This document shows positions 36,040 through 36,426 of a stretch of DNA of 64,000 nucleotides, piece by piece. This DNA is from a phage. The notes beneath the pieces are model-generated. The model did no database searches. It saw nothing but the letters and a program-made list of their open reading frames with translations, and was not told where the DNA came from. A program made the position numbers and the translations under genes. How positions within the stretch are numbered: the first letter of the stretch is position 1; each line of letters starts with the position of its first letter. The DNA lies in sequence record PZ445439.1; one strand, 5' to 3'.

Positions 36040-36349
36040 TGCGGCAACCTTGTCGGGGTTCCACCTGCTAAGGCAAGTGTTTGTACGAAACGCCGGGATT
36101 CGAACCCGGTTACCAAGCAGTTGACGCTACTCAATATTTTTAAAAGGCCATATCTCGACCATATCCGAACGTTCCGTCAAAAACGCTACTCGGCTTATGG
36201 CAAAGATATTTCCTCGAATCGATAATTCGGTGCGCCGTTTCTGCTGTGATATAAGGGGACATTAACAGATCGTAAAGATTTGTTAATGTCAGTCCTTAAA
36301 CAGGGAACATCAGTCCGACGACTTACCGGTAGCGACCCGGCTTCTTGTC
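36040..36349 (-). ncRNA. stable small RNA region (T4 species 1/2, rnaC/rnaD-like) with tRNA-like T-arm
   Basis: no ORF; canonical T-arm CCGGG-TTCGAAT-CCCGG and paired ends between tRNA-Arg and terminator; boundaries approximate. Confidence 0.45.
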
Positions 36350-36426
36350 TGGTCGAGACAGAAGGATTCTAACCTTCAACCTACGGATTAGAAGTCCGTT
36401 GCTCTATACAATTGAGCTATGCCTCG
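36350..36426 (-). tRNA. tRNA-Arg (anticodon UCU), CCA encoded
   Basis: cloverleaf: acceptor CGAGGCA/TGTCTCG, D-arm GCTC..GAGC, anticodon stem ACGGA/TCCGT loop CTTCTAA, T-stem GAAGG/CCTTC. Confidence 0.8.

What the first reader, a model, noticed from the sequence alone, without database searches (positions are those of the whole stretch)
36040..36426. tRNA-Arg fused to a 310-nt non-coding stable-RNA region with tRNA-like features
Downstream of tRNA-Arg (36350..36426, CCA encoded) and before the operon terminator there is no ORF, but the sequence contains a canonical T-arm (CCGGG-TTCGAAT-CCCGG) and two sets of long-range paired ends (CGCTAC...GTAGCG; TTGACG...CGTCAA). This is consistent with the two T4 stable RNAs of unknown function (species 1 and 2). 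Their exact boundaries and structure here cannot be fixed by eye.
Basis: partly seen in the sequence, partly recalled or inferred. Interest (0 to 1): 0.45.

Follow-up and report, generated by a model that had tools for sequence, protein, structure and literature searches.

The report
T4 stable RNAs rnaD and rnaC
The non-coding stretch after tRNA-Arg holds this T4-like phage's copies of two long-known stable RNAs of unknown function (species 2/rnaD and species 1/rnaC); comparing relatives shows rnaC is a tRNA-shaped RNA whose "anticodon" loop pairs with the tip of an oversized D arm.

Summary
The window comes from a Tequatrovirus. The interval after tRNA-Arg(UCU) (36426..36350, minus strand) holds homologues of T4 rnaD (species 2 RNA, 36348..36229) and rnaC (species 1 RNA, 36222..36084). 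A conserved trailer with three hairpins and the operon terminator (36033..36005) follow. Both RNAs are annotated in the T4 reference genome, so the feature is already known. Their function was still called unknown in papers up to 2025.

Comparative analysis added detail. rnaC is built like a tRNA cloverleaf: a 7-bp acceptor stem, a T arm, an anticodon-arm equivalent with a 6-nt loop, and a D arm expanded to about 26 bp. The D-arm tip loop (UUGACG) is exactly complementary to the "anticodon" loop (CGUCAA). Two lineages changed both loops together. In 32 distinct sequences, 36 of 50 pairs show compensatory changes. rnaD has a conserved basal module and an apical hairpin that is swapped between phages; 13 of 22 pairs are compensatory. 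Each RNA also occurs without the other nearby, always inside tRNA clusters of T4-like phages.

Its CGCTAC/GTAGCG pairing is unsupported. No conserved ORF exists. Function remains inferred: most likely RNAs matured by the tRNA-processing machinery that bind tRNA-recognising factors.

The parts
36350..36426 (-). tRNA-Arg (anticodon UCU), CCA encoded. It is the first gene of the second subcluster. Its sequence matches the RB33 version and differs from T4's own tRNA-Arg.
   Evidence: ARAGORN; Rfam RF00005 71.1 bits; alignment with T4 and RB33
36229..36348 (-). rnaD, the homologue of T4 species 2 RNA (120 nt by transfer of the T4 boundaries; the ends are uncertain by 1-2 nt)
   Evidence: Alignment to annotated T4 and RB33 rnaD. 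Fold z-score -3.4. Covariation.
36325..36341 (-). rnaD 5' hairpin H1: 5-bp stem GCCGG/CCGGU with the 7-nt loop GUCGCUA
   Evidence: Closing pair is AU:15, GC:5, GU:3. Four of 5 pairs are compensatory once diverged relatives are added.
36230..36322 (-). rnaD basal module. P1 is 36322..36316 with 36237..36230. An asymmetric internal loop is GACUGA (36315..36310) opposite GAAA (36241..36238). P2 is 36309..36306 with 36245..36242. The CCC bulge (36305..36303) is invariant. UG/CA is 36302..36301 with 36248..36247. P3 is 36299..36296 with 36254..36251. These enclose the apical domain.
   Evidence: RNAalifold consensus; pair counts; coordinates
36255..36295 (-). rnaD apical hairpin domain. It is hypervariable: at least three unrelated sequence families replace each other among close relatives.
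   Evidence: Alignments A3 and A5; MFE fold
36223..36228 (-). 6-nt spacer GAAUUA between rnaD and rnaC, a presumed processing site
   Evidence: Boundary transfer from T4
36084..36222 (-). rnaC, the homologue of T4 species 1 RNA (139 nt by the T4 annotation). The acceptor stem starts one base in, at 36221. The discriminator-like U is at 36085.
   Evidence: Fold z-score -3.7. Model R1 gives 179.6 bits. Covariation.
36215..36221 (-). rnaC P1 5' strand (CGAUUCG). It pairs with 36092..36086 (CGUUUCG) to form a 7-bp acceptor-like stem with two U.U mismatches in this phage.
   Evidence: Third pair is AU:14 versus GC:18. The mismatches become U-A/C-G in Yersinia phages, and Roth20 has a perfect 7 bp.
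36145..36214 (-). rnaC expanded 'D arm'. P2 is AGG 36214..36212 with CCU 36147..36145. P3a is 36209..36203 with 36156..36150. P3b is 36201..36196 with 36163..36158. P3c is 36193..36190 with 36168..36165. Hairpin Ha has stem 36186..36181 with 36174..36169.
   Evidence: P2 has 3 of 3 pairs compensatory, P3 14 of 15 and Ha 4 of 6; coordinates
36175..36180 (-). Ha loop UUGACG, the 5' partner of the loop-loop (kissing) pairing
   Evidence: Complementary to the Hb loop in 32 of 32 distinct sequences. The variants are UUGACG:CGUCAA (29), UUGAUG:CAUCAA (2) and UUGCAG:CUGCAA (1).
36113..36134 (-). rnaC hairpin Hb, the anticodon-arm equivalent. The 8-bp stem is 36134..36127 with 36120..36113. The 6-nt loop CGUCAA is 36126..36121 and is the 3' partner of the kissing pairing.
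   Evidence: All 8 stem pairs are compensatory. Model R1 aligns tRNA anticodon arms to it.
36093..36109 (-). rnaC T arm: CCGGG / UUCGAAU / CCCGG. It sits directly 5' of the acceptor 3' strand, as in tRNA.
   Evidence: Two of 5 pairs are compensatory (GC:18, UA:12 and others). Weak Rfam T-arm matches.
36034..36083 (-). Conserved 3' trailer with three small hairpins (36079..36062, 36060..36046, 36045..36036). The same trailer follows rnaD directly in Dhakavirus phages, which lack an adjacent rnaC.
   Evidence: One compensatory G-C to A-U change in hairpin 1 (L159).
36005..36033 (-). Intrinsic terminator of the tRNA/stable-RNA operon (10-bp stem, GAAA loop, U tract)
   Evidence: PMC2330249 states that the T4 transcript terminates after the species I gene.

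Best explanation
Identity and biogenesis. The interval carries two tandem genes for processed, stable, non-coding RNAs: rnaD (species 2) and rnaC (species 1) of a T4-like phage. They are transcribed on the minus strand as the 3' end of the tRNA operon (tRNA cluster, segB, tRNA-Arg, rnaD, rnaC, trailer, terminator). They are cut out of the precursor by the host tRNA-maturation machinery.

rnaC (structure shown by covariation). rnaC is a tRNA-derived cloverleaf mimic. It has a 7-bp acceptor stem stacked on a standard T arm and followed by a discriminator-like U. Hairpin Hb stands in for the anticodon arm and has a 6-nt loop. The D arm is expanded into a rod of about 26 bp. The loop at the tip of that rod forms six base pairs with the 'anticodon' loop, so no anticodon is exposed.

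rnaC (inferred). The acceptor/T-arm module makes it a substrate for RNase P and for 3' trimming or CCA addition. Because it cannot decode, it most likely acts as a tRNA-shaped ligand, either a decoy or a scaffold, for a protein that recognises the upper half of tRNA.

rnaD (structure shown by covariation). rnaD is a separate module: a 5' hairpin, a terminal helix, an asymmetric internal loop, an invariant CCC bulge, and an exchangeable apical hairpin.

rnaD (inferred). The invariant basal part binds a conserved partner and the swappable tip tunes specificity.

I am confident of the identity and the structures. The functional step is my best guess, at roughly 0.25.
For: Identity:
- The region is 91-99% identical to annotated rnaC/rnaD of T4, RB33 and RB3, in the same gene order.

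Non-coding:
- No Pfam-sized or conserved ORF exists, and stop-free stretches differ between close relatives.

rnaC structure:
- In A2, 95.7% of cells are paired against 35-47% when partners are slid, and 17 of 50 pairs are compensatory.
- In A4 (32 distinct sequences), 36 of 50 pairs are compensatory; 0 of 500 shuffles reach this.
- The MFE fold independently recovers P1, P2, P3, Hb and the T arm.
- The kissing helix is 100% paired and has three co-varying variants from two independent lineages.

tRNA homology of the architecture:
- Model R1, built only from rnaC, aligns true tRNAs with acceptor = P1, D stem = P2, anticodon arm = Hb and T arm = T.
- Roth20 encodes U-CCA after a perfect 7-bp stem.
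- One GenBank record calls part of the homologue a 96-nt tRNA.

rnaD structure:
- (96.6% of cells paired; 13 of 22 pairs compensatory).

Co-transcription and expression:
- A terminator is found only after rnaC.
- RNAC was detected by Northern blot and classed as a late RNA (PMC9697503).

Hint that rnaD matters:
- The only convergent SNP in phage BW-1 evolved on host ECOR34 restores a C-G pair in the rnaD apical hairpin.
Against: - No experiment available here shows what either RNA binds or does. Reviews and papers up to 2025 call the function unknown.
- The mature ends were transferred from the T4 annotation, not measured. The annotated rnaC 5' end is one base upstream of the base of P1, and most copies encode U-ACAA rather than U-CCA. 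Canonical RNase P and CCA-enzyme handling is therefore inferred.
- Five of the 32 distinct rnaC sequences (from Enterobacter- and Kosakonia-phage lineages) have a non-canonical T loop, UGCAUGC or UGCAUUC. A strict tRNA-like T loop is therefore not universal.
- Support for the kissing pairing rests on two lineages, with three changed pairs in all.
- Alignments A4 and A5 were fitted to the models, which favours the nested helices. This does not affect the pseudoknot, which was not in the model.
- From memory, T4 deletions of the tRNA region are viable in laboratory hosts, so any role is conditional.
Confidence: 0.85

Rival explanations
1. The interval is only a structured 3' untranslated tail or processing spacer of the tRNA operon. 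The hairpins protect tRNA-Arg and the transcript from 3' exonucleases or guide RNase cleavage. The excised pieces are inert by-products.
For: The RNAs lie at the 3' end of the operon, just before the terminator. The trailer hairpins are conserved. No function is known.
Against: - Covariation is extensive across at least eight genera.
- Single-stranded motifs are invariant, for example the CCC bulge and the loop pair.
- Both RNAs recur at other positions in tRNA clusters, between tRNA genes and far from any terminator.
- The processed RNAs accumulate.
Confidence: 0.1
2. rnaC and/or rnaD are trans-acting base-pairing regulators of phage or host mRNAs. The conserved single-stranded segments or the variable rnaD hairpin loop would act as the seed.
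For: The rnaD apical domain is swapped between phages like a specificity module. The BW-1 SNP affects host-specific fitness. The authors of PMC12685909 regard them as regulatory.
Against: - The processed RNAs lack the terminator and U tail typical of Hfq-dependent sRNAs.
- The most conserved parts are helices and small bulges, not a long accessible seed.
- No target search could be run here.
Confidence: 0.15
3. rnaC is a working adaptor in translation: an unusual tRNA, or a tmRNA-like molecule, that is aminoacylated and enters the ribosome.
For: It has an acceptor stem, a T arm and a discriminator, and one lineage encodes CCA. There are weak tRNA-Sec and permuted-tmRNA T-arm matches.
Against: - ARAGORN calls neither a tRNA nor a tmRNA here.
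- No Rfam tRNA or tmRNA hit reaches threshold; the best is 16 bits against 47 needed.
- The anticodon-loop equivalent has 6 nt and is fully paired to another loop in every sequence.
- There is no tag reading frame.
- The acceptor stem carries two U.U mismatches in most phages.
Confidence: 0.04
4. The interval encodes small proteins, as many GenBank records annotate ('hypothetical protein' once to three times over this stretch).
For: ORFs of 40, 53 and 81 aa overlap the interval. Automated annotations place CDSs here.
Against: - Stop-free stretches are not conserved between close relatives. The 70-codon antisense stretch in the window is 36 codons in T4 and 43 in L134.
- Homologues differ by 1-nt insertions or deletions.
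- Substitutions are compensatory in helices.
- The ORFs run through a T arm and a terminator hairpin.
Confidence: 0.02
5. rnaD and rnaC work as a base-paired heterodimer, through CGCUAC in the rnaD H1 loop and GUAGCG in rnaC.
For: The 6-nt complementarity exists, and both partners are invariant within Tequatrovirus. The two genes are adjacent in 26 loci.
Against: - 6-nt complements are at chance frequency.
- Five loci (four Dhakavirus phages and Providencia phage PSTCR6) keep the same H1 loop with no rnaC within the 1.2-1.5 kb downstream.
- Diverged rnaD relatives in rnaC-carrying phages have a different H1 loop (AGACGU and others).
- GUAGCG in rnaC is part of the Ha and Hb stems.
Confidence: 0.04

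Closest known systems
Bacteriophage T4 rnaC (species 1 RNA) and rnaD (species 2 RNA), GenBank NC_000866 features T4s001 and T4s002
   Same: Sequences are nearly identical (rnaC about 97%, rnaD about 88% with a related apical hairpin). The order, strand and neighbours are the same (tRNA-Arg upstream, terminator downstream). These are the same genes in a sister phage.
   Different: The window's tRNA-Arg and the rnaD apical hairpin are the RB33/RB32-type alleles rather than T4's. rnaD ends ...CACC-G here, whereas T4 has ...CACC-A. An extra ORF cassette follows the terminator.
Canonical tRNA (Rfam RF00005)
   Same: rnaC has a 7-bp acceptor stem, a 5-bp T stem with a 7-nt UUCGAAU loop directly before the acceptor 3' strand, a discriminator base, a short variable region and an arm in the anticodon position. 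It lies in a tRNA gene cluster. The rnaC model aligns real tRNAs arm for arm.
   Different: The D arm is expanded by about 65 nt. A 10-nt linker replaces nucleotide 26. The 'anticodon' loop has 6 nt and is paired to the D-arm tip. No CCA is encoded in most copies. tRNA finders and the Rfam model do not accept it.
tRNA-like domain of tmRNA (SsrA)
   Same: Both are stable RNAs with a tRNA upper half (acceptor plus T arm) processed by RNase P (tmRNA processing: established knowledge, PMC11143913). Both have long-range tertiary pairings in place of a normal anticodon arm.
   Different: rnaC has no tag reading frame, no G3:U70 alanine identity pair and no H-type pseudoknot series. ARAGORN and Rfam tmRNA models do not detect it.
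Bacterial YrlA (Y RNA-like) and mammalian mascRNA, non-decoding tRNA mimics made by tRNA-processing enzymes
   Same: The concept is the same: a tRNA-shaped module lets a non-decoding RNA be matured and recognised by tRNA enzymes. This comparison is from memory and is a lead only.
   Different: There is no sequence or Rfam relationship (mascRNA match 14 bits against 42.5 needed, over the T arm only). No Ro-binding stem was examined.
Loop-loop 'kissing' complexes (ColE1 RNA I/RNA II, HIV-1 DIS)
   Same: Six Watson-Crick pairs form between two hairpin loops, using every loop nucleotide.
   Different: Here the contact is within one molecule and closes a tRNA-like fold into a ring. It is supported by covariation only, with no structural data.

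Membership tests
T4 rnaC (species 1 RNA) | Sequence homology to the annotated T4 rnaC over its full length | tested here: met
   Full-length alignment with few differences. nhmmer E = 2.5e-41. Model R1 gives 179.6 bits.
T4 rnaC (species 1 RNA) | Position: last gene of the tRNA operon, after rnaD and before the operon terminator | tested here: met
T4 rnaC (species 1 RNA) | Accumulates as a discrete stable RNA of about 140 nt in infected cells | not testable with these tools
   Shown for T4 itself by Northern blot (PMC9697503), not for this phage
T4 rnaD (species 2 RNA) | Sequence homology to the annotated T4 rnaD, located directly after tRNA-Arg | tested here: met
   (E = 6.8e-40). Model R2 gives 148.1 bits.
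T4 rnaD (species 2 RNA) | Accumulates as a discrete stable RNA of about 120 nt | not testable with these tools
   Literature covers T4 only
tRNA (RF00005 / ARAGORN) | Reaches the curated covariance-model score or is called by a tRNA finder | tested here: not met
   No hit over rnaC or rnaD at the gathering score. Best below-threshold hit is tRNA-Sec, 16.1 bits against 47. ARAGORN makes no call.
tRNA (RF00005 / ARAGORN) | Acceptor stem of 7 bp continuous with a 5-bp T stem and a 7-nt T loop | tested here: met
   Covariation in P1 and the T arm. True tRNAs align to these elements.
tRNA (RF00005 / ARAGORN) | A 7-nt anticodon loop that presents a free anticodon | tested here: not met
   The loop has 6 nt and is complementary to the Ha loop in 32 of 32 sequences
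tRNA (RF00005 / ARAGORN) | 3'-terminal CCA (encoded or added) and aminoacylation | tested here: inconclusive
   U-CCA is encoded only in Roth20. Others have U-ACAA or U-UCAA. Post-transcriptional addition and charging cannot be tested here.
tmRNA | tRNA-like domain plus an internal tag reading frame and pseudoknots; detected by ARAGORN or Rfam | tested here: not met
   ARAGORN finds no tmRNA. Only a 10-bit T-arm fragment matches tmRNA_permuted.
Hfq-type trans-acting sRNA | Own intrinsic terminator with a U tail at the RNA 3' end, and an accessible seed | tested here: not met
   Neither processed RNA ends at a terminator; the single terminator lies 50 nt beyond rnaC. Hfq binding was not tested.

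The most novel reading that the evidence does not exclude
rnaC and rnaD are counter-defence RNAs. rnaC would be a tRNA-shaped decoy whose 'anticodon' loop is locked away by the kissing contact. It could then occupy or mislead a host tRNA-recognising factor, such as a tRNA-cleaving immune nuclease, without being consumed in translation. rnaD would carry an exchangeable apical hairpin that is under host-specific selection.

This reading fits four observations. Both RNAs sit in tRNA clusters next to segB. Phage tRNA regions have recently been shown to counter tRNA-cleaving defences such as Septu (PMC13096335). The rnaD tip is swapped among close relatives. The single convergent BW-1 mutation on host ECOR34 repairs a base pair in that tip.
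Probability: 0.12. Interest if true: 0.75.

Novelty: already known. Interest (0 to 1): 0.3.

Why it matters
The feature itself is textbook T4 biology. [quoted passage not shown] Their role is one of the oldest open questions for T4.

This analysis makes the question more tractable in four ways:
- It gives covariation-backed secondary structures for both RNAs.
- It names a specific, mutable tertiary contact in rnaC (UUGACG:CGUCAA), with natural compensatory variants to copy.
- It shows that the two RNAs are separate modules spread through tRNA clusters of many Tevenvirinae genera. These include diverged rnaD-like RNAs that are not annotated in the records examined.
- It links a published adaptive SNP to repair of a base pair in rnaD.

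There is also a practical gain. Neither RNA has an Rfam family, and many deposited genomes annotate spurious 'hypothetical proteins', or in one case a false tRNA, over them.

Tried and rejected
1. Alternative 8-bp acceptor pairing (ACGGAACG, 36177..36170, with CGUUUCGU, 36092..36085), suggested by the weak tRNA-Sec hit. It has no compensatory change, covariation below every shuffle, and is broken in 10 of 25 sequences at one pair. It remains possible only as a Tequatrovirus-specific alternative fold.
2. The basal helix register that the single-sequence MFE fold gave for rnaD (CUG.AUG with CAG.CAG). I replaced it with the RNAalifold register, in which the observed U/A changes pair.
3. The rnaD-rnaC pairing CGCUAC:GUAGCG. 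It is unsupported.
4. Loose IMG/VR pattern CGAGGA-N(70-95)-AGCRTCAACT. Of the loci from that scan still held (L009-L128; 80 were listed), only L009 was real. A 38-nt specific pattern then gave 17 viral and 11 metagenome loci, and none in 185,579 bacterial and archaeal genomes.
5. The search for related loci with dNMP kinase as an anchor. It returned only three close relatives, so I used a tblastn search of the phage collection instead.
6. Rfam scans at gathering and permissive thresholds. No family covers either RNA.
7. Literature searches for 'p2Sp1', 'species 1 RNA' and rnaC/rnaD. The 1970s-80s sequencing and processing papers are not in the library, and no functional study was found.
8. Coding potential of the overlapping small ORFs. 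Rejected.
9. Models R1 and R2 found neither RNA in the ~9 kb downstream of gene 1 in Gelderlandvirus STML-198 or Aeromonas phage Aes012. The one STML-198 hit is an unannotated tRNA-Arg.
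Full report
**Identity of the window and the locus.** The 551 bases around the finding match 759 phage records. Nearly all are Tequatrovirus (T4-like) phages of Escherichia, Shigella, Yersinia and Salmonella, and the best match is 97.8% identical. On the minus strand the window carries seven tRNA genes (37706..37137), a 221-aa GIY-YIG homing endonuclease ORF (segB; 37095..36430; phrog_314), and tRNA-Arg(UCU) at 36426..36350. This is the arrangement of the T4 tRNA region. In the T4 reference record, tRNA-Arg is followed by two annotated misc_RNAs: rnaD ('small, stable RNA; species 2 RNA', 119 nt) and rnaC ('species 1 RNA', 139 nt). 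RB33 and RB3 carry the same annotations. A three-way alignment shows that the window is almost identical to T4 and RB33 from the end of tRNA-Arg to the terminator. Transferring the T4 boundaries gives rnaD = 36348..36229, a GAAUUA spacer, and rnaC = 36222..36084.

**Observation check.** They are the tRNA-Arg with encoded CCA, the T arm CCGGG-UUCGAAU-CCCGG (36109..36093), TTGACG (36180..36175) with CGTCAA (36126..36121), CGCTAC (36334..36329) with GTAGCG (36189..36184 and 36130..36125), and the terminator (36033..36010). A 6-nt complement alone means little here. The 310-nt non-tRNA part holds 15 such pairs, against 12.6 +/- 4.4 in dinucleotide shuffles. Whether either pairing is real had to be settled with relatives.

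**rnaC structure.** I collected homologues from four sources:
- the annotated phage collection;
- IMG/VR;
- metagenomes;
- regions downstream of gene 1 in more distant genera.

A scan of 185,579 bacterial and archaeal genomes with the same pattern found nothing. On 25 distinct sequences (alignment A2) I tested a structure with seven helices. 95.7% of cells are paired, against 35-47% when partners are slid. 17 of 50 pairs have compensatory changes, and 0 of 500 shuffles reach this. After adding diverged copies through covariance model R1 (alignment A4, 32 distinct sequences), 36 of 50 pairs are compensatory. The elements are:
- P1, a 7-bp terminal stem (36221..36215 with 36092..36086). Its third pair is A-U in 14 sequences and G-C in 18. 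Its two U.U mismatches become U-A and C-G in Yersinia phages, and the Klebsiella phage Roth20 copy has a perfect 7 bp.
- P2 (AGG/CCU), which becomes CAC/GUG in Roth20.
- A long arm, P3a-c, capped by hairpin Ha.
- Hairpin Hb, in which all eight pairs covary.
- A T arm placed directly before the P1 3' strand.

The single-sequence MFE fold independently recovers P1, P2, P3, Hb and the T arm.

**The loop-loop contact.** Ha and Hb each end in a 6-nt loop, and the two loops are exact complements in every one of the 32 sequences. The variants are UUGACG:CGUCAA (29), UUGAUG:CAUCAA (2 Yersinia Tegunavirus sequences) and UUGCAG:CUGCAA (Roth20). Three pair positions have thus changed on both sides, in two independent lineages. 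This pairing was not part of the model that produced alignment A4. An extended-duplex alternative is excluded because the Ha and Hb stems are not complementary to each other in most phages.

**rnaC is built like a tRNA.** Model R1 was trained only on rnaC. It still hits genuine tRNAs (Roth20 tRNA-Gln at 23 bits and tRNA-Met; an unannotated tRNA-Arg in STML-198). It aligns their acceptor stem to P1, D stem to P2, anticodon arm to Hb and T arm to the T arm. After P1 comes a single U, then ACAA in most copies, but CCA in Roth20. One GenBank record annotates the 3' part of the homologue as a 96-nt 'tRNA-Phe'. Even so, ARAGORN and the Rfam tRNA and tmRNA models reject it. The anticodon-loop equivalent has six nucleotides and is always paired. 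The weak tRNA-Sec hit implied an alternative acceptor pairing, which covariation rejects. My reading is that rnaC is a tRNA-derived, non-decoding mimic. Its D arm has grown into a rod of about 26 bp, and the tip of that rod masks the 'anticodon' loop.

**rnaD structure and family.** Twenty-three distinct rnaD sequences share a nearly invariant basal part, but their apical regions fall into three unrelated families (window/T4 type, T2 type, JS98 type). RNAalifold and pair counts support four elements: a 5' hairpin H1 (closing pair AU:15, GC:5, GU:3), a terminal helix P1, a short helix P2 (U-A, A-U and U.U states), and P3 (three covarying pairs). Model R2 then found diverged rnaD-like RNAs of about 110 nt at 22-37 bits. 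They occur in phages I had scored as rnaC-only (Karamvirus, Erwinia phage COW86c, Roth20). They lie elsewhere in the tRNA cluster, typically right after tRNA-Asn. With these included, 13 of 22 pairs are compensatory and 96.6% of cells are paired, against 31-46% when slid. The motifs AAGUCGUC...GGCGC and UCCCUG stay nearly constant across the family, and UCACAGCA is kept in part of it. The H1 stem and loop are replaced.

**Distribution.**
- rnaC and rnaD are adjacent in 26 loci (Tequatrovirus, Gaprivervirus SP18).
- rnaD is followed directly by the same 3' trailer, with no rnaC, in Dhakavirus; Providencia phage PSTCR6 also has rnaD without rnaC, there followed by tRNA-Ile.
- rnaC occurs without an adjacent rnaD in Karamvirus, Kanagawavirus, Winklervirus and Tegunavirus, and in Erwinia and Klebsiella (Roth20) phages.
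- In every case the RNA sits within or beside the tRNA gene cluster.
- Neither was found in the region examined in Gelderlandvirus STML-198 or Aeromonas phage Aes012.

**Transcription and the rest of the interval.** The only intrinsic terminator between the tRNA cluster and the next ORF is at 36033..36010. For T4, PMC2330249 (citing Broida and Abelson) describes a ~1.75 kb primary transcript. It runs from a middle promoter upstream of the cluster to a terminator after the species I gene, and it is the precursor of eight tRNAs and of species I and II RNAs. RNAC was detected by Northern blot, and both RNAs were classed as late (PMC9697503). A late-promoter consensus lies upstream of the cluster at 38559..38552. 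Between rnaC and the terminator, a 50-nt trailer forms three small hairpins. It is conserved, follows rnaD directly in Dhakavirus, and shows one compensatory change.

**Coding rival.** ORFs of 40, 53 and 81 aa overlap the interval, and many GenBank records annotate 'hypothetical proteins' there. Three observations argue against coding: stop-free stretches differ even among close relatives, homologues differ by single-base insertions or deletions, and substitutions follow helix complementarity.

**How it most likely works.** Two things are shown: the identity, and the covariation-supported folds. Biogenesis is inferred from tRNA biology. The acceptor/T-arm stack is what RNase P and 3'-end enzymes recognise, and a U usually precedes the first stem base, as in good RNase P substrates. 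This would explain how rnaC is excised and why it is stable. The function is more weakly inferred. rnaC cannot decode, so it most plausibly acts as a tRNA-shaped ligand. rnaD combines an invariant core, suggesting a conserved partner, with a swappable tip, suggesting specificity.

One published datum bears on this. In phage BW-1 evolved on the semi-permissive host ECOR34, the single SNP shared by all lines is T to C at 164264 (PMC12685909). On the RNA strand this is A to G at nucleotide 74 of a T2-type rnaD. It converts CACAG-UUUUA-CUAUG into CACAG-UUUUA-CUGUG, restoring the C-G pair that all other T2-type copies have. The authors did not note this. It suggests that the rnaD apical hairpin matters in at least one host. 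Recent work also shows that phage tRNA regions and segB counter tRNA-cleaving defences such as Septu (PMC13096335). That paper does not mention these RNAs, so the counter-defence idea remains speculation.

**Comparison, novelty and score.** This is a member of the known T4 rnaC/rnaD genes, with all sequence and position criteria met. It works partly like a tRNA (upper half) but fails the tRNA and tmRNA membership tests (score thresholds, a free 7-nt anticodon loop, a tag frame). The finding as given is already known, so I score its interest low to moderate. What may be new is the comparative structure (in particular the kissing contact), the wider rnaD-like family, and the reading of the BW-1 SNP. 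I could not read the 1975-1985 sequencing and processing papers. An early secondary-structure proposal with tRNA-like features may therefore exist; my recollection that it does is from memory only.

**Limits.**
- The mature ends are transferred, not measured.
- Alignments A4 and A5 are model-fitted.
- The kissing contact rests on two lineages.
- The model E-values are rough.
- Only a few distant genera were sampled.

Noticed in passing
L167 (Escherichia phage BW-1, OR125554.1) position 565 = record 164264; the equivalent part of the window is the rnaD apical domain, 36295..36255: The single convergent SNP reported for BW-1 evolved on host ECOR34 (PMC12685909) is A to G on the RNA strand, in the 3' strand of the T2-type rnaD apical hairpin. 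It repairs a C.A mismatch to the C-G pair found in all other T2-type copies. The paper placed it at 'position 41' and saw no structural effect.
   Followed up: partly
L007:320-429, L009:6801-6910, L137:786-894(-), L160:73-182, L171:12221-12330, L170:11719-11851, L158:5432-5567(-): Diverged rnaD-like RNAs of about 110 nt (22-37 bits with model R2) occur in Karamvirus-type, Erwinia and Roth20 phages. Most lie just after tRNA-Asn. They are unannotated or overlapped by tiny 'hypothetical protein' CDSs. They keep AAGUCGUC...GGCGC and UCCCUG but have a different 5' hairpin.
   Followed up: partly
window 36034..36083 (-): The 3' trailer between rnaC and the terminator is conserved and forms three hairpins. 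The same trailer follows rnaD directly in Dhakavirus, as if rnaC were a cassette inserted or deleted precisely between rnaD and the trailer. There is one compensatory change in hairpin 1 (L159).
   Followed up: partly
window 35455..36033 (-): Two near-identical terminator hairpins (36033..36010 and 35478..35455) flank a late promoter (TATAAATA, 36003..35996) and a 157-aa ORF (35959..35486, phrog_2280, unknown function). T4 lacks this cassette, and its sequence after the single terminator matches the window's sequence after the second copy. RB33 has the cassette.
   Followed up: partly
window 36350..36426 (-) compared with L002 (T4): The tRNA-Arg(UCU) here (RB33 type) matches the T4 tRNA-Arg at only about half of its aligned positions (my reading of alignment A1), although rnaD and rnaC immediately downstream are nearly identical. 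The T4-type allele reappears in Dhakavirus MX01 and in Providencia phage PSTCR6. This looks like a mosaic junction next to the segB homing endonuclease gene.
   Followed up: no
window 36170..36177 with 36085..36092 (-): In Tequatrovirus only, ACGGAACG could pair with the 3' end CGUUUCGU (8 bp), competing with P1, Ha and the kissing contact. It is not conserved elsewhere but could be a lineage-specific alternative fold.
   Followed up: yes
A4 columns 131-137 (T loop); L003, L129, L143, L158, L162: Five rnaC copies, from Enterobacter- and Kosakonia-phage lineages, have UGCAUGC or UGCAUUC instead of the UUCGAAU T loop, while the T stem is kept. They therefore lack the usual U54/U55/A58 pattern.
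   Followed up: no
L168 (Salmonella phage STML-198, NC_027344) about 13273-13350; L161 (KKP_3262) 1179-1274; many records: Annotation problems in public records. STML-198 has an unannotated tRNA-Arg(UCU). KKP_3262 has a 96-nt 'tRNA-Phe' that is really the 3' part of rnaC. Many Tequatrovirus genomes carry one to three 'hypothetical protein' CDSs laid over rnaC and rnaD. Rfam has no family for either RNA.
   Followed up: partly
window 37137..37208 (-): ARAGORN calls this gene tRNA-Met(CAT). The T4 record annotates the gene at the same position in the cluster as tRNA-Ile. From memory, its CAU anticodon is read as Ile after lysidine modification.
   Followed up: no
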